Position numbers and translations under genes: made by a program
Origin: Octopus vulgaris
Lineage: Eukaryota
Direction of reading: 5' to 3'
Length of the DNA stretch: 64,000 bases
NCBI GenBank assembly: GCA_951406725.2
Contig: OX597824.1
Coordinates: 88,040,001-88,104,000 of the forward strand
The notes under the pieces: model-generated
Database searches by the model: none
What the model was told of the DNA's origin: nothing
What the model saw: the letters and a program-made list of their open reading frames with translations, nothing else
Shown: positions 4,304-45,395 of the stretch, piece after piece
How the letters are laid out: the number at the start of each line of letters is the position of its first letter
How positions within the stretch are numbered: the stretch's first letter is position 1

Positions 4304-6220
4304 TTCGTGTGGCATTTTCCAGGGTGACTCACTGTCACCACTCCTCTTTTGTTTATCCTTAATACCTCTCTCAAAGCTGCTCAATGACGCGCAGTACGGG
4401 TATAAAATGTTTGATAAAAATATAAATCATCTCATTTACATGGATGATTTAAAGCTTTTTGCAAAAAATGACCAACAACTCAAGGGCTTACTAGCGATAG
4501 TCAAACAACTCAGTGACGACATTAGAATGCAATTCGGCCTCGATAAATGTGCATAAGCTACCTTTATCAAAGGAAAAATGACAGAAACATCTAACGTTAA
4601 CCTTGACCAGCAGAATGTCATAAAAGAATTAGACCCAGCGGAGAGCTACAAGTACCAGGGGTAATTAAAGGGAACGGAATAAGGCATTCAGAGATGAAGG
4701 AAAGGATCAGGAGAGAATGCTATCGAAGAGTGAGAGCAATACTCAAGACAGAGCTGAATGCAAGAAACAGGATCGAAGCGATCAATGCATTAGCCATACC
4801 AGTCGTGACTTACAGTTTCAATATTGTTAACTGGTCAATTACTGAAATATGTCAGCTCGACAGAAAAATAAGGAAACTGTTGACAATGCATAGAATGCAC
4901 CACCCTAAGGCAGATACAGAACGACTCTATCTGCCAAGAAAAGAGGGAGGCCGTGGTCTTTTGCAACTGGCAATAACAATGAAGATTGCTACAATTGGCC
5001 TAGACACCTACCTGAAAAACTCTGAGGACTGGATGTTAAAACTTGTCTCAAAACATGAAAACAAGAAAGCATCATACTCAGTAACAAAACAGGCAAAGGA
5101 ATATCTAAGTGAATTCCGAATACAACCAATTTCGGAATTAGAGATAGATATACAAGAAACAAGCACAGAAAAAGCTAGGCGCATGAAAACCCGTGCCAAA
5201 ACTGCGGCCTTAGATATTCTGAATAATAAATGGCAAGAAAAACCTCTCTATGGCAAATACCCAAAGAGAGCGAATAATGCAGATATCGACAAAGCCCTGA
5301 CCCACCAATGGCTAATGGCCTCTGGCTTAAAATCTGAAACTGAGGGGTTTATCATAGCAGCTCAAGATCAATGCCTACCAACAAGAAACTACCAGGCCAA
5401 CATATTAAAGAACGGCAGTAGCCCAACATGTCGTGTATGCCGACAACAAAATGAAACCATTGACCATGTTGTCTCCAAATGCAGTCTTCTAGCGCCTACA
5501 GAGTACCTCAGTAGGCATGATAGAGCTGCACAATATATTCACTGGGTAATATGCAAAAACCTGGATTTGCCCCATGAAAAAAACTGGTGGGAATACAATC
5601 CACCTCCTGTGCTTGAAAATGACCACATCTCACTCCTCTGGAACTTCACCATTCAAACTGACAGGAAGATAGATGCAAATAGGCCAGACATTATATTGAA
5701 AGACTTCAGACAAAGAACATGCCTCCTCATTGATATGACTGTCCCAATCGATATAAACGTATCTGTCAAGACCTACCAAAAACTGAGCAAATATAAAGAT
5801 CTTGAAATAGAAATCAGCAAAATGTGGAAGCTGAAGACTAAAACAATACCTGTTGTCATAGGTGCCCTGGGAATGATAGCGAAAGGGACTGATTGCTACC
5901 TAACTCAGATACCAGGAAACCCCAAAATGGCAGAAATTCAAAAGATAGTGCTCATGGGAACTGCTCATATCCTACGCAAAATACTCTCTATGTAATCCCA
6001 AGGTTTAAAACAAACTTTTTTGTTTATTTATTTATTTATTTATTTAATTTATTTATTTATTTTTTATTTTTATGTATTAGACATTCACTAGTACAACACA
6101 AAAAAAAAAAAAAAAACCCCAAATATATGGCACAGAACTTCCAACCTGTTGTCTCTTGAGGTCTCTGGGTGAGACTTGGAGCCAACTTGTACAGACATAA
6201 AGCAAAAGTCAAACATAGAA
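4303..6220 (+). mobile_element. 5'-truncated non-LTR retrotransposon with RT and restriction-like endonuclease (R4/Dong-type), inserted in (TAA)n
   Basis: RT motifs GIFQGDSLSPLLF and YMDD; CCHC finger CRVC..ETIDHVVSKC, RHD, RPDI..LLIDMTVP..K..KYKDL. Stop at 4554-4556 and a frameshift near 4660. The 3' UTR ends at caaacatagaa, with (TAA)n on both flanks. Confidence 0.92.
4694..5995 (+). pseudogene. Open 433-codon remnant of the RT-thumb/zinc-knuckle/RLE part of the element above
   Basis: ORF track; LYLPRKEGGRGL, CCHC and PD-(D/E)xK motifs. Confidence 0.85.
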
Positions 6221-16423: not shown

Positions 16424-17007
16424 TGCTTTGATGTTGTTTTTTTTATTATCAGCAGTGTGAACAATGAGTTTTTTTATTTGTTGTTTGATAGCTAGTGATT
16501 CATTTCAAACAAATAAAATCTGTTTTTCTCCATCATTAAGTCATATTATCTAACGATTTTGCCCTGCGTGTAAAACTTTAATCAACACATCTTTTCAAGA
16601 TATTAACCTGACATAGAATTGAAGCAATAAAGGTTGAAATAAAGTTAAAAGTGAACTCATTTAACAACCAGCTTTCAAGCTTCCCTTCTGTGCAGAGAAA
16701 GTTACTGTGAAACTAAACTGATAAACAGAAGCTTTCATTTGTTATTTTATTGTTTAAGAGGAATAAATATTTGATTCAACACAACCATAAAGATTAATGT
16801 ATAATCCTATATATATTTCCCTATCAAATCATAAAATGCTGCTATAGATATGAAATTAGGAAAATGCTGAAGTATTTTAGAATATATCATATTGTGTGCA
16901 ATCAATGTAGAGGAAATTACAATTTTTGGAGTTAGATAAAAGGAAATTAAGGCTGAAATAAAAATTAAAGAGAGTTATATTAAAATTTGTTGAAAAATCA
17001 AACTAAC

Positions 17008-20000
17008 CTTGATTTCTTTCTGGTAATCTACTAATCCGCCATACAATTGCATGATAAACGTTTTCATATTTTGCTGTGCCTACAGAGGCTTCCAGAAGAG
17101 CTGGATTAGTGCCACTTTGTGTCATCATTGTCAACCTTTCTAGCCCTTTGATTTTCCCTGGTTTTCTGGTGGCTGATTTAAAGGACCCATAGCCGAATCG
17201 TTTTTCGTAACGAAATAGATAGATCCAGCAATCAGGAATTGGAAATCTTATTTCAATGTCTTCACAGGGAAATTGCCCATGTTTTTTACTATACGCATGG
17301 TAACCGGTACACACAACGTCACACCGGTATTCAACATGTCTTTCTTTGATACTTCGAAATACTCTCACTATCAAAGGCAACTCTTTATTGTCTCTCAGTC
17401 GAATACGGAACCTCATTAGTTCAAAATGACATGCATCCAGTGGATGAAATTTAATGGTTCCATCCTTTTCGTATTCTTCAGGCTTCGCAGAACAATGAAA
17501 CTGAATATTCTCCGGCTTGATCCATTCTTCTGTTTTGATAGGTATGATATCGTGTCGACCAACAACTTCTCTCCCTTTGCGCCGTTTGTCGTTTACTCCT
17601 AGTTCTACAAATGGCATACCTGTTACAAAAGATAAACAAAAAATTCTTACTCTGGCTTTCTGGGCGACAATATGACCTGCCGTGTTAATCTCTGCTCTGT
17701 ATTCATCAATTACATCGACAATAACTTCGTCTTTTTGATATGATAATGTTTTTTCTCTGTGAGCAACAATTGCCATTAATGCATCTTCCACCTCTTGTAC
17801 AAAGGTGATAATTGTCTGTTCACTTAGTGAACCAAATTTAAGAAGCTCTGAGATCTGCGGAGCATGATCTAAAATCATGTTAGCTTTTGGTTTCATGTTC
17901 TTCACAAAAGTTGGTGTAATCTTTTCGGTTCGAATTCCAACTCTTTCACGATAGAAAACATACTGAATTTTCAATGTGTGTATCTTTCCATATTGATCAT
18001 AATGTTGTAGGGCTATTTCAGACAAAGAGTAACAAGGCTGAAGCGGGAGCTCCTGAAACGAATCTTTATCATCTTTGCTATTGAACAGTTTCAAAACGGG
18101 TCCGTCGTTTTGTTGGACCAATCTCACATAAATTGTCTTCCAGAAACGGTTACCGGTCAGTTTCTTCTTCGTTGGCTGTCGAAGCATTAATGTCCATCCG
18201 TCCTCTTCCATTTTCGGGTTAAAACTTTCAAGGGGTTCAAGGTGTTTTTCTTCCTCTTCAGGTGTGCTACTCTCTGTCGTAGAAACACTCATCTGAGTCT
18301 CAGTTCTTGGTTCCTTTACTTTGTCTTCAGTCTCCATCACTTCGAATTTTGCAAAGTTTTCTTCCGGTGGAGAATCTCGATCAAATGGGTTTATACGTGG
18401 TGCCATTTGCGGAGATTTGGGCACTTTGGGAGGAGGCGGTAGAGCAACTGATGGCCCAGATTCAACTGGTTCCCTCATTCGTATGGTCAGTTTAAAAGCA
18501 TCTTTATTATCATCCATATCTGGGGATTCTTTGTCATCATCACTTGAATCGACAGCTGCTGTATGGGTGGCGGCCATGGCACCTGATGTTTCTGGAATAT
18601 CATCAGGCTCAATGGTTTTGAAAGGGTCAAAAACATCTATAGGCAAGTCAGTCGGATCGATTGGCAAATCTTCCCCTTTACCTAGGAAAATACTGAGATT
18701 GTCTGACAATGAACTCTGTGCTTTTTCAAGTTCTTCTACCTGACTCAAAAATGGATTAATCGTGGTCTCTCCCATCATAGCAGTTGCATTAAAATCACTA
18801 GACAAAAATGGGTTCTTCTGCTCATTTGTCGGTTCTTGACTGTCCATGTCATCTAGAACATTTTGGGGGATATTTTCAGCATCAAAGTTATCATCTTGGA
18901 AAGGGTTAAAAGCTGAATCTTTATCAAGAGTTTCCATTGCCCCCCAAGCATTCTTCGCTGAATCCCCTTCAGCAATTTTCTCAGCAGTTTTTGTATTGAA
19001 GAAATCTTCATCAAAAAATTCGGCATTGGCAACAGCTGGAGTATCGTTTTGATCTACAAACGGATTGGCACTTGATTCTGTAAATAAGCTAACGTTTGAA
19101 TCTGCACCCTCTCCAGATGAACTAGTAATGTTAGTGCTACTGGTGACTGGAGCAGGATCAGGAGTAATCTCAGGCTGTAGGAAAGCATTTAATTTAGAAG
19201 CAATATCTTCAGATATTTCTGGTTGTATTAATGCACCCATATTATTAGCTTTGTTATCAACAGACTGCCCAAAAGGCGAATCATCTTCAATAGTCTCGAA
19301 CATTGAAAATGGATTTTTAACGTGGATAGAAGTTTCCGGATCAATGTTGTCGAAAGGATTAATCTGACTGATTTCTGATTTGGAAATATCAGGTACTTCT
19401 TGTGCATCCATTGCTGAAAAGGAACTCGGAACAGGAGTTGTTTGTGGAGCCAAGATAGGAAATGAGGAATCTGAGAAAGGTGCTGTTGTAGGCACAGCAG
19501 ATGGTTCCAGCATAGGGAAAGCCGAGTTTGTTGTAGGGAAACCAGAATCTGAGAAGCAAGCTGGTTTTATTTCCTCGGCAAACGGATCAGTTAAAGAATG
19601 CACATTTTCTCCTGAAGCGTCAAGCATTGGTGATGCGGATGCAAAACTGTCATCAATGAGTGAAAAAGGTTTATTTGCATGTGACACATCTGGGGCAAGG
19701 ATTTCAGCGGTCGTGTTTGAGGAAACCGGACTACCAAATGTTGTTGAGAAAGCTTCGTCACTGATTAAGAAATCAGCGCTAGCCTTCTTCAGGGATGTAT
19801 CAGTTTCTGCACTACTTGCTACTAAATCTGTTACTTCCATTGTCAGCAGTGAACTGTCTTTTGTTGATGTTGTTGTTGTTGTTGGTATTGTTGTCATAGT
19901 TACGTCTGTCGGTTGTGCAGCAAACATATCACCAGTTGCATCGGTTGCCATTGGAAACGCATCTTCAGATGTTGGCACAGACATACTTGCAGAACCGAAA

Positions 20001-22942
20001 TCACTTCCTACCCCTGGGAAAGCTAAGTCAGTTTTAACTGCCGAGTCTGAGACTGAACCTGGCCAGTCAGCTTCAAATGGTGAACTTGAAAATGGTTGAA
20101 CAGCAGGCGCTGCTTGGGTAGCACTTAATTCACAAAACGCAAAACTAGATTGATCATTAGCAGAAATTTTAGTGCTCAAATCACTATCTGAAGTAGAGCT
20201 AAATTGATCAGAAAAGGCATTCCAGCCAAAAGGAGTTTCAGATGATTCTACATGAACATCTACTGGTTCTGAAATAGTACTAAAAGGATCAGTTTGTAAA
20301 GTCAAGGGTTTATAGACTAATTGATCAGCAATTTGCAAATCTTCCTGTTTAACAAAAGAAACTGATCCTATATCAACTGGTTCTGACGTAGTACAAAAGG
20401 GACTATCTTCTAAAGAGTCTGTAGCTTTTTTATCTAATTTATAAGAAGTATCATCGGTATGAAACTCTAATGGTTCAGATATTGTTGTGAATGGACTAGA
20501 ACTTGGTTTACTTTGATCAGAACTTGCTGAAATTTTCTCAACTGCTTTAATTGCTAGAGCGATTGAAGCAAAATCTAGTGGTTCCGATATAGTTGAATAA
20601 GGTTCTGGTGTGGAGGCCAGCTTGTCTGTTTTACCTGGAATGAGACTAGTGTCTGTTGATCCAGCTGGATCAATGAGTCCTTCAGATTCTGAGAAGCAGG
20701 CAAAACCAGAAAGTTCTAAATTTGGTTGAGTAAATAAGGATGTTTCTGAGGAAGCAAAAGGATCCACAGCTGCAGCTCCTAATTCTTTATCTTTTGGTAT
20801 ATTATTCATGAAAATATTATTTCCTGAATCTTCTGTCTTTTCGACAAAAAAGTCTTCAAGCTGGTTTGCTTCTTCAGTCTTTTCTGAGACAAAATCAGTG
20901 GCCCTTGTTTCTTGTATATTCGGATTTATTTCGAATGCATCTTTGTTTTCACCAAATAGATCAGTATTTGAAGTAGTGAAATCTGCAGGGGATGCAAAAG
21001 GGTCAACTTTTGAACTCGTGAGCTCTGTAGTTGAAGTGAAGGGATCACCTGTTAAACTGCTGAGTTCTGTAGTTGGCGCAAAAAGATCAGCTGTTGAACT
21101 TGTGACCTCTGCAGTTGAAGAGAAGGGATCAACTGTTGAGCTAGTGACCTCTACAGTTGAAGAGAAGAGATCAGCTGTTGCACTTGTGACCTCTGCAGTT
21201 GAAGAGAAGAGATCAGCTGTTGCACTTGTGACCTCTGCAGTTGAAGAGAAGAGATCAGCTGTTACACTTGTGACCTCTGCTGTTGAAGAGAAGAGATCAG
21301 CTGTTGCACTTGTGACCTCTGCAGTTGAAGAGAAGGGGTCAACTGTTGAGCTAGTGACCTCTGCAGTTGATGCAAAAGGATCGCTTGTTGAACTCGTGAA
21401 CTCTGTAGCTGAAGCGAACGGGTCAACTGTTGAGCTAAAAATATCCTTAGTTGGAGTGAAAGGGTCAATATTAGATGGTGTCAAATCAGAAGTGTCAGCA
21501 AATAATTCAGAACCAGATCTTGGCAATCCAGGTGAAACAGCTAATGTATCCAATGTGGAACTACCCAAAGTTGATCCCAGAAATAATGATTCTGTACATG
21601 CAGGAGAAACAACAAAAGGATCAGATGAGGATATTTCTGTTGGGGGTTTTGCAGAAAGTGAATCTGGAACTGTTTTAGATGCACTTGGTTTAACAGAAAA
21701 TGGATCTTCTAAAACATTATAGGACTGTGTTGTAGTTACTGGATCGCTAGAAACTGCAAAAGGATCTGTTGAAGGCGATGTTGTTTTTACTGCAAATGGA
21801 TCAGTGGACTTGATATCACTCTCAACAGATGTAACAAAAGGATCATGCGTCACAACAAAGGGATCAGATGGAGTTGCAACTGCTGATTTAACAGTAAAGG
21901 GGTCAGATTCTGATTCAGTTTTAATAACAATTGAAGAAACATCAAATGGATCGACAATTTTTCGAACAACAAATGGGTCTGCTTCAGATTCTGGGGCAAG
22001 TTGGGTGACGGGAGAAAGTGCAGGACTTATAGCCGGGGAAGGTTTTAGGCTAGTTGAAGGGTCTAATCCTAAAAAGCTATCAACTAATTCATCGGTAACA
22101 CTCTTGTTGGATAAAGTTAAATTTTCTTCTTCTGCTGCTAAAAAGTCTTTTTCAAATTGAGATTGATGGCTGGAGAGCCAATCATCCGGTTCGGGCGGGG
22201 ATTCAAAATCTCCCAACCCAAGCCCTAATAAGTCTTGAACACTACCTCCTGTTTCAGATTTTGGTTTTGTACTAATATCATTTAATTCTTCAGTAGAGTC
22301 TTCAGGGTAATAGCTTGAAGCTTTCGAGTACGGAATATTTGATGCTTCTTCATCGATTTCTTCTGATTCTCCTTGATTAGCTCTCAAACCAGCCCAAGAA
22401 CCATCAGAAGCTGATGCTTCGTCGTCTTCAAGATTATCACCCTCGTCTTTTGATGCTAATCTATTCAAATTCTGTTGTGTTTTTATGACCGTTTCTTTGG
22501 TTCGGTCGAGCATTTGCTGTAAGGCCAGCCATTCTTCAGAGCGTTCAGTTTTATCACTGAGTGTTGGATCGACAAATTCTTTCGAAGGAGAGGGTATTGG
22601 GGATTTGTGCTTCTTCTTATCTTTAATGAAGTGTTTTGGAGATTTTAGGCCAGCTTTATGTTTCAAAGAGCTTATAATTTTATGCGCCTTTTTATTAGCA
22701 GAAGTTATATGATGTCCAACTGATGGAGATGCGCTTCCTGAAGCAGTTGCAGTTGGTTGAGCAGAAGGAGAAGTTGACCGAGAAGTAGCTTTTAAGTTGA
22801 TGGGTGCAGGTCTTGGAGGAGCAGATCGAGGAGGTGGCCCTGAAGGTCGAGGTGGAGGACGTTTCTTAACCAGCTCAAGATTACTCTGTTCATCTCTGTC
22901 ATGAGTCAAATTTGATGAGTCCTCCCAAGAACCAGCAGACAT
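17008..22942 (-). CDS. stnB: Stonin/stoned (Stoned-B/stonin-2-like endocytic adaptor with a Stoned-A-like N-terminus), giant coding exon; CDS incomplete at the 3' end
   Basis: 1991-codon open frame. Acceptor tttcaatttcAG|G gives exon start 22962; ATG in gccATGt context at 22942; donor CAAG|GTTAGT at 17008/17007. Stonin homology domain GWTLMLRQPTKKKLTGNRFWK, then mu-homology domain (FLSFVTGMP-like FCLSFVTGMP, IQFHC, IKFHPLDACHFELMRFR, SVGTAKYENVYHAIVWRI). 7 NPF, ~20 DPF and one WNAF motif. Confidence 0.93.
20954..21466 (-). repeat. Coding minisatellite: 12 x 42 bp (14 aa, D[P/L]FSSTAEVTSxT[A/V])
   Basis: Asp codons are spaced exactly 42 bp apart from 21466 to 20962; central units are nearly identical. 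Confidence 0.95.
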
Positions 22943-23434
22943 GGCTAGTCCACTGCTCTTGCCTGAAATTGAAAACAAAGCAAGATTATAATCATAAATT
23001 TGAAAAATTTATTGATAAAATAATTGAAATAATTATAAATTAAACTTAATATTGTAGAACAAAAAATATGGCATATTAGGAAAATGTTAACTTTAATAAG
23101 AAACAAAATACAAAAATAATAAGTAAATGAGTGGAAATCAGACCAGTGAGTGTGTTAAATTAATAAGGCACTAAAAGAGAATGATTCTCCCCAGACACAA
23201 TAAAATATGCTTCAACACACGAATTCAGATAAAGAATCTTGCAAACCAAATACAAAGACGAAATAAAATACAAAAACAAACATAATTTGAAATAGGTTGA
23301 AATTTAAATGCAACACTACTTTGCAGAAATAAATGTTCTGTCATCCAGAAATGTGGCAACATTAAGAGTTATTACCACAAAGCCATAACATATACGAGGT
23401 GAGAATGCAAATAAATTAAAGAATCATGACTATA

Positions 23435-24374: not shown

Positions 24375-24548
24375 AGCTACTACATGCATTTTTTTCTCTC
24401 CTTGTTTTTTTCTGTGTATCTTTCTGTCGAAGAGCGTAGGCTCAAAACATAAAAGACTCTTTCTATTCCTGAGCGTTATACTAATACATTTTTTTTGTTT
24501 GTACTCCACCTACCTTCGTCTTTTGTTTATTTTCGTAAACTTTCCCTT
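24375..24548 (+). mobile_element. Short element with a decayed minimal hammerhead motif (same family as 39885-40078)
   Basis: tcttt-CTGTCGA-a-gagc-gtag-gctc-AAAACATA-aaaga; GAAACGTA has taken two G>A changes at CpG sites. Confidence 0.7.
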
Positions 24549-34008: not shown

Positions 34009-34840
34009 GGCTTCTTTCAGTTTCCGTCTATCAAATCCACTTACAAGGCTTTGTTCAGCCCGAGGCTATAGTAGAAGACACTTGCCCAAGGTGCCACGCA
34101 GTGGGATTGAACCCGGAACCATGTGGTTAGTAAGCAAGCTACTTACCACACAGCCACTCCTGCGCCTATGTCTAGATTTCTACAGATACATGTGTGCATG
34201 TGTGTGAGTGTGTGTGTGAGCACGCGCATGTGTGTGTGTGCTTGCCGCTTCTCCCAAAAAGTTCCGTTGCCAAAACAGACTGAATGTTTAGTCAGCTGTG
34301 CCAAATCTTCAGCATCCCAACAGCTGTGCCCAACAATCTCATTCTGAATTGCAGCTGCTTTTACAACAATGAACAAAGAATGGTGAATGAAGGAACTTGT
34401 ACGTAACTCTTTCACCTGATCGTTTATAACAGCCAAATCGCCTTTTTCTAGACAAACCACAGACTGTTTGTAAAAAGGTGATGCCACATATCTCATGTCT
34501 TCAATTTTAGGGCAGCAGGTTGGATAACAAATACAACACTTCACAGCTAGAAATACCAGTCAAAATCTTTAGAACTTTAAATTGGTTTAAACAGTAATGA
34601 CAATGGTTACCTAATAAAAACCAATATGAAGGACCTTTACCATTGGAAAATATTTGCCTCTGCAATTTTTATTAGTAATCTGAAGAATTTTGCCTAAATC
34701 TCTTTCTCTTTCTCTTTTCTCTTTTACTTGTTTCAGTCATTTGACTGCGGCCATGCTGGAGCACCGCCTTTAATCGAGCAACTCGACCCCGGGACTTATT
34801 CTTTGTAAGCCCAGTACTTATTCTATCGGTCAATACTAGC

Positions 34841-34912
34841 CTCCCCGGCGGGGAATCGAACCCCGGTCTCCCGCGTGACAGGCAGGGATACTTACCACTA
34901 TACTACCAAGGA
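34841..34912 (-). tRNA. tRNA-Asp(GTC)
   Basis: TCCTTGG TA GTAT AGTGGTAA GTAT C CCTGC CTGTCAC GCGGG AGAC CGGGG TTCGATT CCCCG CCGGGGA G: a 72-nt cloverleaf with anticodon GTC, discriminator G and intact A/B boxes. Confidence 0.92.
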
Positions 34913-35385
34913 GAAAATTTGAGTACTTTTACAAGGATTGAACCTTTGTTAAAGAGGTTTGTGTATTGCTGTGTCCATGTCTTTACCCACAACACCATTG
35001 AGACAACAAATGTTTATCTATCTATTGTAGTTGGACCCCTTTCTATCTCAAACAATCTTTAGTAGATCCTTCTTTTGCAAACCCCACAATCCATGTAGCT
35101 CTAATTAAACAAATGGCAGAACTCTTACATTTAACTTTGACCTAAATATTTTCCTATAATATATTTCTCAGTTCTATCTAAAAATATAGTTCAGATAATT
35201 TACCAAATGCTCTGTACCCTTTTTTATGGTGACTTTTTAAGGATTAATGCTGATGTCTGGTGATAGGAACACCACTAAAGCTGTCTCATTACCGTAGAAA
35301 ATAAAGGGAGAATGACATTGGAGTGATTTTCCTGTTGCCTTTTTCTGACCAATGGCCAGATTTAAGCTCAACACTATAATATTTA

Positions 35386-38545: not shown

Positions 38546-39943
38546 ATGTATGTATGTATGTATGTATGTATGTATGTATGAATGTATGTATGTATGTATG
38601 TATTATATATGTATGTATGTATGTATTATATATGTATGTATGTATGTATGCATGTGTACATGTATGTGTGTATGTATATGTATATATATGTATATATGTA
38701 TGTATGCATGCTGGATGTTAAATATGTGCATGTATATATGTGTGTGTATATGTGTGTGTGTGTGTATGTATATATGTGTATGTGTGTGCATGTGCATGTG
38801 TGTGAGTCTGTGTATATGTATGTACATATATTAATGCTCGTTTCTATGTTCAGTTATACTCTTTTACTCTTTTACTCTTTTAATCTTTTACTTGTTTCAG
38901 TTATTTGACTGCGGCCATGCTGGAGCACCGCCTTTAAGCCCAGTACTTATTTTATCGGTCTCTTTTGCCGAACCGCTAAGTGACGGGGACATAAACACAA
39001 CAGCATAGGTTGTCAATGCTAGGGGGACAAACACACAAACATACACGCACACATATATATATATATATACACATATACGACAGGCTTCTTTCAGTTTCCG
39101 TCTACCAAATCCACTCACAAGGCATTGGTCGGCCCGAGGTTATAGTAGAAGACACTTGCCCAAGGTGCCACGCAGTGGGATTGAACCCGGAACCATGTGG
39201 TTGGTAGACAAGCTACTTACCACACAGCCACTCCTGTGCCTATTATAACGAAAGCAAGTTATAACGAAAGCAATTTTACATTATGTATGCGAGTGTGTGT
39301 ACACATACCCGGATATACTCACACACATGCATACACACACGCACGCACACACACACACGCATACACACACGCACGCACACATACACACACGTGTACCAAG
39401 GTCATAAAACTGATTCCCTATGGATCAAGTTCTCACATAAAACGCATCCATTTCCAATGCCATGAACTTGCAGTATTATTTTCAAAGCAATTATTGCTAT
39501 TAAACTTGATAATGAAGACAGACAAAGCACATTTCTAATCACCGTTTATCGGTTTATTAATTAATTATTACGACAGTAATAATCGACTTTTAACATGCTA
39601 TTGTCTATGTTGTTGATGGTGGGGGTGAGCAGACCACTAATTAAAGACAATCCAGCCTTGACCATTCCACCATTTTAGAAGTATGTTGGATGATATTATT
39701 CAATATAAACTTCATTTTTTTATGAGTCAACAACTATCCTTTCAGCCCCCCCCCCCCACACACACACACCATACATCTCGCACCCTCCTCATAGACTATG
39801 CCTGTTTTTCCCTTCCCCAGCCACTCCTGTATCCTATCCAGCATCATCTCCCTCCTGTCCTTCTCCTGTCTACTGTATGTATGCATAGCTCCTGCACGCA
39901 TTTTTTTCTCTTCTTGTTTCTCTCCTTGTTTCTTTTCTGTGTA

Positions 39944-39981
39944 TCTTTCTGTCGAAGAGCGTAGGCTCGAAACGTAAAAGA
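39944..39981 (+). ncRNA. Minimal type I hammerhead ribozyme motif (A6U core variant) in a (TA)n-tailed short element (~39885-40078)
   Basis: Stem I tcttt/aaaga; core CTGTCGA-A; stem II gagc-gtag-gctc; GAAA-CG-TA. Confidence 0.65.
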
Positions 39982-40074
39982 CTTTTTTTTATTTCTATTC
40001 CTGAGCGCTATACTGATACATTTGTTTGTTTGTACTCCACCTGCCTTTGTCTTTTGTTTATTTTCGTAAACCTT

Positions 40075-40128
<54 letters not shown>

Positions 40129-45349: not shown

Positions 45350-45395
45350 AACACAACGTTTCGGCTGATATACTCTCCAGCCTTCATCAGGTGTC
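45350..45395 (-). ncRNA. Minimal type I hammerhead ribozyme motif, canonical core
   Basis: Minus strand gacac-CTGATGA-a-ggctg-gagagtatat-cagcc-GAAA-CG-TT-gtgtt. Confidence 0.8.

What the first reader, a model, noticed from the sequence alone, without database searches (positions are those of the whole stretch)
39885..40078. (TA)n-tailed mini-element with a variant-core hammerhead (CUGUCGA)
Seen: tcttt-CTGTCGA-a-gagc-gtag-gctc-GAAACGTA-aaaga has full hammerhead geometry except U at core position 6. The copy at 24375-24548 has the same CUGUCGA, so the variant belongs to the family and is not copy-specific decay; that copy has lost GAAAC through CpG mutation. Inference: a non-autonomous Penelope-derived or retrozyme-like family with a natural A6U core.
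Basis: partly seen in the sequence, partly recalled or inferred. Interest (0 to 1): 0.7.

Follow-up and report, generated by a model that had tools for sequence, protein, structure and literature searches.

The report
Penelope hammerhead with fixed U6 core
This short repeat is the broken-off end of a common jumping gene, and it carries a hammerhead-type RNA fold in which one normally fixed core letter has been changed for the whole lineage while the rest of the fold was kept, so it is likely a slow or protein-helped self-cutting RNA, though cutting is untested.

Summary
The motif is real and not chance (2 descriptor hits in the window, 0 in 200 shuffles). It is not a non-autonomous mini-element or retrozyme. 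It is the 5'-truncated 3' end (pLTR) of an autonomous Penelope-like element: full copies read hammerhead, RT plus GIY-YIG ORF, hammerhead, with U6 in both repeats. The (TA)n is the insertion target. U6 is lineage-wide: 18,928 exact genome matches against 356 with A6 and 584 with C/G; a related family keeps A6 (39 of 39). Across seven U6 subfamilies, 1 of 34 constrained hammerhead positions changed against 57 of 149 flank positions (Fisher P 1e-5). The other changes fall on N7, the cleavage nucleotide and a bulge. So the fold stayed under selection after A6 was lost. Cleavage is untested; published A6 changes lower activity, and copy 5' ends are not enriched at the predicted cut. No natural A6U turned up in eight paper searches, but one key paper was not held. 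This scan noted the same variant before in another genome (e1-9559914).

The parts
39886..40077 (+). 5'-truncated copy of the 3' pseudo-LTR of an autonomous Penelope-like element (young subfamily Y1)
   Evidence: 91% identical over 215 columns (tail included) to the 3' repeat of full-length copy L207; the match starts at 39886
39941..39982 (+). Minimal type I hammerhead motif: stem I of 4 bp plus 2-nt bulge plus 2 bp, core, extra A between 9 and 10.1, stem II of 4 bp, palindrome in place of stem III
   Evidence: sequence; inner stem I and stem II pair probabilities 0.73-1.0, outer 2 bp only 0.02-0.04; 92% of cells paired in a 22-copy alignment
39952..39952 (+). U6 in place of the canonical A6
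   Evidence: 18,928 exact U6 matches against 356 A6; no other letter at 2% or more in four runs of organisms A-D
39976..39976 (+). A17, predicted cleavage nucleotide (cut 3' of it); A or U across subfamily majorities, never G
   Evidence: the cut is predicted, not shown
40078..40126 (+). (TA)24 microsatellite, most likely the insertion target, possibly expanded afterwards
   Evidence: (TA)3 at the 3' end of 63 of 72 and at the 5' junction of 35 of 72 copies; the element itself has a short TA tract at this point in its upstream repeat
24375..24547 (+). Second, more decayed truncated copy of the same subfamily; U6 kept, G12 and 16.2 lost by CpG change; no (TA)n

Best explanation
The stretch is the 5'-truncated 3' end of an autonomous Penelope-like retrotransposon next to a (TA)n tract, and its minimal hammerhead carries a U6 fixed across the lineage; the fold was likely kept by selection in the source elements and probably still cuts, slowly, as a dimer or with help from the element's protein. 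Shown: the element's anatomy, the fixed 3' end, the variable 5' truncation, fixation of U6, and the pattern of change among subfamilies. Inferred: the GIY-YIG endonuclease nicks (TA)n DNA; the nicked end primes reverse transcription at the short TA tract about 100 bases past the hammerhead; copying mostly stops after about 200 bases, leaving fragments like this one. Inferred and untested: two RNAs pair through the ACGU palindrome to complete stem III, and cutting after nucleotide 17 trims or circularises a minority of transcripts. Most templates are uncut or re-joined, because most copies read through the motif. This single genomic fragment is itself a passive copy.
For: Full-length copies: two U6 hammerheads 4.2-4.4 kb apart around the ORF in 4 of 12 long loci fetched (L207, L211, L212, L213); L207 has 1,098 stop-free codons. 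RVT_1 E 6e-8; GIY-YIG E 0.0095, below Pfam's cut-off; DKG, YIDD, linker zinc motif and C-terminal GIY-YIG motifs. A U6 hammerhead was seen downstream of the ORF in 26 of 30 ORF-anchored loci, none with A6. Position 6 by exact pattern: U 10,426 + 8,502, C/G 584, A 356. Seven subfamily majorities all have U6; variable sites are 1 of 34 constrained, 4 of 8 free (10 steps: N7 four, H17 three, bulge three) and 57 of 149 flank sites; Fisher P 1e-5, or 5.5e-4 against the 3' flank alone, 26 of 87. All three CpGs in the stems and palindrome are kept in all seven. Contigs of four runs (organisms A-D) show the same pattern without my classification: the large differences lie at N7, H17 and the bulge. The A6 family B has a G-C for C-G swap in stem I. 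The motif fits the published PLE consensus except at 6 (PMC4209133 supplement passage). A natural A6C hammerhead cleaves slowly in Mg2+ and well in Mn2+ (PMC7151607). A Penelope hammerhead cleaved only with its protein (PMC11167929).
Against: No cleavage was measured. All single mutants of the CUGA turn had low activity in a saturation scan (PMC9901934), and A6C cut the rate in Mg2+ by about five orders of magnitude in one ribozyme at 0.3 mM. Minimal PLE hammerheads are weak even with A6. Hammerhead-dead mutants did not impair insertion in vitro. In the first 100 listed matches (55 distinct loci, tallied by hand), 14 to 17 copies begin at the predicted cut and 14 begin at a TA-microhomology control site 13 bases upstream: no enrichment. 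147 of 172 copies picked by the 3' flank read through the motif. Loop 2 is also unchanged in all seven subfamilies although I classed it as free, so part of the conservation may be plain sequence recognition. Subfamilies were defined by flank words, which raises the flank rate; the steps assume a ladder order; stem II shows no compensatory change. One stem I position (39980) has G-to-T at up to 7% of depth.
Confidence: 0.55

Rival explanations
1. The U6 motif no longer cuts at a useful rate but is kept as a folded or sequence-specific binding site for the element's own protein (RNA packaging, dimerisation, or positioning of the reverse-transcription start about 100 bases downstream).
For: A6 changes lower activity. 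Cutting was dispensable for insertion in vitro and no RNA ends were found at the cut for the anole element. No enrichment of copy ends at the cut here. Loop 2 is as conserved as the core. The U6 lineage became very abundant, and elements without canonical hammerheads also thrive (PMC8557442).
Against: The positions that changed are those a hammerhead tolerates (N7 took all four letters; nucleotide 17 moved between A and U, never G), and the catalytic G8 and G12 were kept, G12 although it sits in a CpG. A folded binding site could give a similar pattern, so this is not decisive.
Confidence: 0.33
2. The motif is a dead relic: A6U inactivated it in one founder and it has since been carried along without selection.
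For: Within subfamilies, copies decay at the motif too (2.9% non-CpG and 8.5% CpG mismatches against 5.1% and 13.6% in the 3' flank; the motif figure is biased low by how copies were picked). Other short blocks in the flanks are also unchanged.
Against: 1 change in 34 constrained sites where the flank rate predicts about 19 steps; ten steps at four tolerant sites inside the same 42 bases; the same pattern in four independent runs.
Confidence: 0.07
3. One reading: a discrete non-autonomous mini-element or retrozyme with its own (TA)n tail, moving through tandem or circular RNA.
For: Lengths cluster near 150-220 bases (51 of 72 between 151 and 216), which can look like a unit.
Against: No shared 5' end; lengths run from 70 to 1,498 bases; longer copies run into the ORF. 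Only 4 same-strand neighbour pairs among 223 hits, three of them between different subfamilies. Retrozymes are defined as tandem repeats (bioRxiv 10.64898/2026.07.22.740005; PMC7229834).
Confidence: 0.05

Closest known systems
Minimal type I hammerheads in pLTRs of Penelope-like elements (Cervera and de la Pena 2014, PMC4209133; read: main text parts 1-2 of 4, passages of supplement file 2)
   Same: U-rich lead-in, short stem I, extra nucleotide between 9 and 10.1, G10.1-C11.1, palindrome instead of stem III, two copies flanking the ORF, most copies single and truncated
   Different: A6 is U here. The only core change reported in the text I read is U3-A8; their descriptor and consensus require A6, so this lineage would have been missed
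Neptune or Nematis clade PLEs (definitions from Craig et al. 2021, PMC8557442; read: passages)
   Same: [quoted passage not shown]
   Different: Clade not fixed by a tree here; core variant of the hammerhead
Bcep176 A6C hammerhead (Perreault et al. 2011, PMC3088659, read: passages, section 8, supplement term search; Naghdi et al. 2020, PMC7151607, read: parts 1-2 of 4)
   Same: Natural change at position 6 in an otherwise intact core
   Different: C not U; one phage sequence, not a lineage of more than 18,000 copies; tested active (below 0.1 per minute in Mg2+, about 0.3 in Mn2+), whereas this one is untested
Poseidon element of the green anole, PAc (Frangieh et al. 2024, PMC11167929; read: passages)
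   Same: PLE with pLTR hammerhead, AT-rich target, internal start of reverse transcription that sets the 3' end of copies
   Different: There the ORF starts inside the hammerhead; here the first Met lies about 750 bases downstream, so coding does not explain the conservation
Non-LTR retrozymes (Cervera and de la Pena 2020, PMC7229834, read: passages; bioRxiv 10.64898/2026.07.22.740005, read: part 1 of 5)
   Same: Type I hammerhead in an animal repeat related to PLE pLTRs
   Different: Retrozymes are non-coding tandem units; this is a dispersed, truncated end of a coding element

Membership tests
Penelope-like element (EN+, C-terminal GIY-YIG) | Single ORF with RT followed by GIY-YIG endonuclease | tested here: met
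   Pfam GIY-YIG score is below the curated cut-off, the motifs are present; L207 has R in place of the G of YIG
Penelope-like element (EN+, C-terminal GIY-YIG) | Direct repeats (pLTRs) flanking the ORF, upstream one 5'-truncated | tested here: met
   4 of 12 long loci show both repeats
Penelope-like element (EN+, C-terminal GIY-YIG) | Fixed 3' end, variable 5' truncation, inverted truncated copies, microsatellite targets | tested here: met
   6 inverted neighbour pairs among 223 hits
Neptune/Nematis clades | CX2-5CxxC motif between RT and endonuclease | tested here: met
   found in 9 of 12 long loci; definition
Neptune/Nematis clades | Placement in the RT tree with named references | not tested
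   no named clade references held; closest proteins are mostly unnamed (53-58% identity), named ones come from turtle, snails, sea urchin and coral
Minimal type I hammerhead of PLEs | Stems I and II, extra nucleotide after A9, G10.1-C11.1, palindromic 15.2-16.2, U16.1-H17 | tested here: met
Minimal type I hammerhead of PLEs | Core CUGANGA with A6 | tested here: not met
   U6 in 139 of 147 copies picked by the flank; so filed as a variant, not a plain member
Minimal type I hammerhead of PLEs | Self-cleavage after H17 | not testable with these tools
   only contigs were available; indirect test showed no enrichment
Non-LTR retrozyme | Tandem repeats with a hammerhead in each unit | tested here: not met
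   4 same-strand pairs within 600 bases among 223 hits
Non-LTR retrozyme | Non-coding, non-autonomous unit of fixed length | tested here: not met
Non-LTR retrozyme | Abundant circular RNA | not testable with these tools
   no raw RNA reads listed

The most novel reading that the evidence does not exclude
A highly successful retrotransposon lineage has run through at least seven subfamilies on a hammerhead lacking A6 because its own RT-endonuclease protein supplies what A6 normally does: a ribozyme that cuts only inside the element's ribonucleoprotein. That would make U6 against A6, with and without the protein, a direct test of why Penelope-like elements keep hammerheads at all, and would mean that searches requiring CUGANGA miss whole lineages.
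Probability: 0.3. Interest if true: 0.68.

Novelty: new variant of a known kind. Interest (0 to 1): 0.47.

Why it matters
The role of hammerheads in Penelope-like elements is open: they are widespread, weak in vitro, and dispensable for insertion in the one reconstituted system. Here a core letter regarded as invariant was lost, yet the rest of the motif stayed fixed while tolerant positions and flanks drifted. Either the A6 rule is softer in vivo than in the tube, or the fold is kept for something other than cutting; a simple assay decides. It also shows that descriptors requiring A6 can overlook more than 18,000 motifs in one genome. The element class itself is ordinary.

Tried and rejected
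Rfam: no hammerhead match in the window's listed 150 of 284 rows or in 39860-40077. Retrozyme tandem arrays: not found. Footprint of cleavage in copy 5' ends: none above a microhomology control (first 100 of 292 matches, hand tally). An A6 ancestral or revertant subfamily inside the U6 clade: A6 copies scatter over the tree of 143 older copies; the best cluster among the old C copies is 3 of 4 tips at support 0.72. A6 is still about five times commoner than G6 (356 against roughly 64, estimated from 11 of the first 100 rows; 7 against 1 in the first 100), so a minor A6 source is not excluded. RNA evidence: no RNA holder on record; contigs of four guessed-RNA runs cover the region and show no splice-like joint; no evidence either way. 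Splice-site or coding constraint on the motif: no support. Metagenome scan: 1 hit, L319, lacking U16.1 and stem I, judged chance. The hypergeometric figure printed assumed that all variable sites were free, which is not so (4 of 5), and is not used. ViennaRNA cofold of two monomers gave a long intermolecular duplex, not the dimer hammerhead, which such models do not score. Lunse et al. 2017 on PLE hammerhead variants (recalled; identifiers from memory) was not held. Look-ups in the scan's notes by sequence, by relatives and by a second word set were blank. Scripts 16, 17, 20 and 65 stopped part-way; only their printed parts were used.

Full report
Observation. The second copy at 24375-24547 shares U6-C7 and has lost G12 and 16.2 by CpG changes. 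A descriptor for minimal hammerheads with positions 6 and 7 free found this motif and one canonical motif in the window and nothing in 200 shuffles. Rfam does not see it. Stem III is absent; a 4-nt palindrome stands in its place, the form thought to work as a dimer (PMC4209133).

What the element is. The window lies in a 2.8-Gb animal genome. I take it to be an octopus from recalled repeat content and from the scan's earlier notes; no call of mine shows this. A search with the stretch gave 1,739 candidates, and the 40 scored were full-length matches at 93-100%. Some copies run further upstream, and one, L013/L051, runs into an ORF with RT and GIY-YIG motifs. Of 30 loci anchored on that ORF, 26 showed a hammerhead downstream within the 1.5 kb held, all with U6. 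Of 12 long loci fetched, 4 have the complete layout: U6 hammerhead, ORF, U6 hammerhead, 4.2-4.4 kb apart; L207 has 1,098 stop-free codons. The protein matches RVT_1, weakly GIY-YIG, and has the DKG motif, the linker zinc motif and a C-terminal endonuclease, which by PMC8557442 points to the Neptune or Nematis clades. Its closest database relatives are animal proteins of the same layout. The finding is therefore a truncated end of an autonomous Penelope-like element.

Ends and target. In 72 copies picked by a 3'-flank pattern, the 3' end is fixed and lengths run from 70 to 1,498 bases, median about 200 (1.45 kb was searched upstream, so the longest may be longer). (TA)3 lies at the 3' end of 63 and at the 5' junction of 35 of the 72, against 0.095 by chance. 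In full copies the upstream repeat continues through a short TA tract into the 5' UTR at exactly the point where copies end. I infer that nicked (TA)n DNA primes reverse transcription on this tract, in line with internal initiation and AT-rich targets shown for the anole element (PMC11167929). Tandem arrays were not seen: 4 same-strand pairs within 600 bases among 223 hits, and 6 inverted pairs.

U6 is lineage-wide. With the rest of a 27-letter pattern fixed, the genome has 10,426 matches with U6 and C or U at 7, 8,502 with U6 and A or G at 7, 584 with C or G at 6 and 356 with A6. These are exact matches and so lower bounds. Of 172 copies picked by three 3'-flank patterns, 147 reach the motif, and position 6 is U in 139, C in 4, A in 3 and G in 1; the other 25 are truncated before it or deleted in it. 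A more distant family, B, has A6 in 39 of 39 matches and a G-C for C-G swap in stem I. A6 copies with U6-type flanks scatter over the tree and are mostly later mutations, though a minor A6 source is not excluded. Contigs from four runs labelled as four organisms show no other letter at 39952 at 2% or more, so the change is shared with near relatives.

Selection after the change. I sorted 268 distinct motif-bearing copies by flank words into B, seven U6 subfamilies and 25 unassigned copies, which were left out of the majorities. Divergence from the subfamily majority falls from 9.9% (C) through 8.0, 7.8, 7.3 and 4.0% (Y1 with Y2) to 1.3% (Y3), matching the tip order of the tree. Along this ladder N7 goes U, G, G, A, C, U, U; nucleotide 17 goes A, U, A, A, A, A, U; the stem I bulge changes three times. 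Only 1 of 34 constrained positions changes (the outermost stem I pair), against 57 of 149 flank positions (P 1e-5) or 26 of 87 in the 3' flank (P 5.5e-4). The read-laying result shows the same pattern without my classification: N7 varies to all three other letters, nucleotide 17 to U, the bulge at both sites, and core CpG sites only at decay levels of up to 11%. Caveats: flank words defined the groups, part of the sample was picked by the motif itself, homopolymer flanks align poorly, loop 2 is unchanged too, and stem II shows no covariation.

Does it cut? Not shown. Published data cut both ways. Single changes in the CUGA turn gave low activity (PMC9901934). The natural A6C variant is slow in Mg2+ but active in Mn2+. 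Minimal PLE hammerheads are weak even with A6. The anole hammerhead cut only with its protein and was not needed for insertion in vitro. My indirect test was neutral to negative: among 55 distinct loci whose 5' end falls within 13 bases of the predicted cut, 14 to 17 begin at the cut and 14 at a TA control site (first 100 of 292 rows, tallied by hand). No raw RNA reads were available. I put slow, dimer- or protein-dependent cutting at 0.55, a non-cutting binding fold at 0.33, a neutral relic at 0.07 and a separate mini-element at 0.05.

Novelty. Eight full-text searches gave no report of a natural A6U hammerhead; the A6U hits concern twister and glmS by their listings. A term search of 11 supplements of PMC3088659 was blank, but figures are not held, one supplement of PMC4209133 was not searchable, and Lunse et al. 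2017 (recalled) was not held, so priority is not certain. The scan itself noted a fixed A6U core with A7 in another genome (e1-9559914); I could not check that DNA, but the same A7 form is abundant here. Verdict: a new core variant of a known ribozyme in an ordinary element class, with good evidence of continued selection and a cheap decisive test. Interest 0.47.

Noticed in passing
window 45351-45394, minus strand: A canonical A6 minimal hammerhead (4-bp stem I, long stem II, palindrome) in another repeat; the only other descriptor hit in the window.
   Followed up: partly
window 17006-23008, minus strand: A 2,001-codon stop-free frame, probably a giant exon of a host gene, with a 42-base repeat at 20998-21433. 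Both element copies lie on the opposite strand, upstream of it.
   Followed up: no
window 34839-34913, minus strand: tRNA-Asp(GTC) gene or tRNA-derived repeat.
   Followed up: no
window 4607-5992, plus strand: A 462-codon frame that looks like the end of a non-LTR reverse transcriptase (likeness recalled, not searched).
   Followed up: no
L207 3630-3915 and 8000-8295 (G000:C2:77210500-77220499): The two repeats of this full-length copy are only 85-90% alike and belong to different subfamilies (Y3 and Y1), unlike 97-100% in L211-L213: a template switch between two RNAs or later recombination.
   Followed up: partly
L023, L055, L083: Young copies sit 290-390 bases from older copies of another subfamily on the same strand, consistent with insertion into the (TA)n of an earlier copy.
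   Followed up: partly
L051 663-740 and 3030-3111: The DNA on the two sides of this truncated copy reads as an inverted repeat of itself.
   Followed up: no
L177-L191, L339: Family B and further divergent relatives with canonical A6 hammerheads share the 3' end layout; their ORFs were not looked for.
   Followed up: partly
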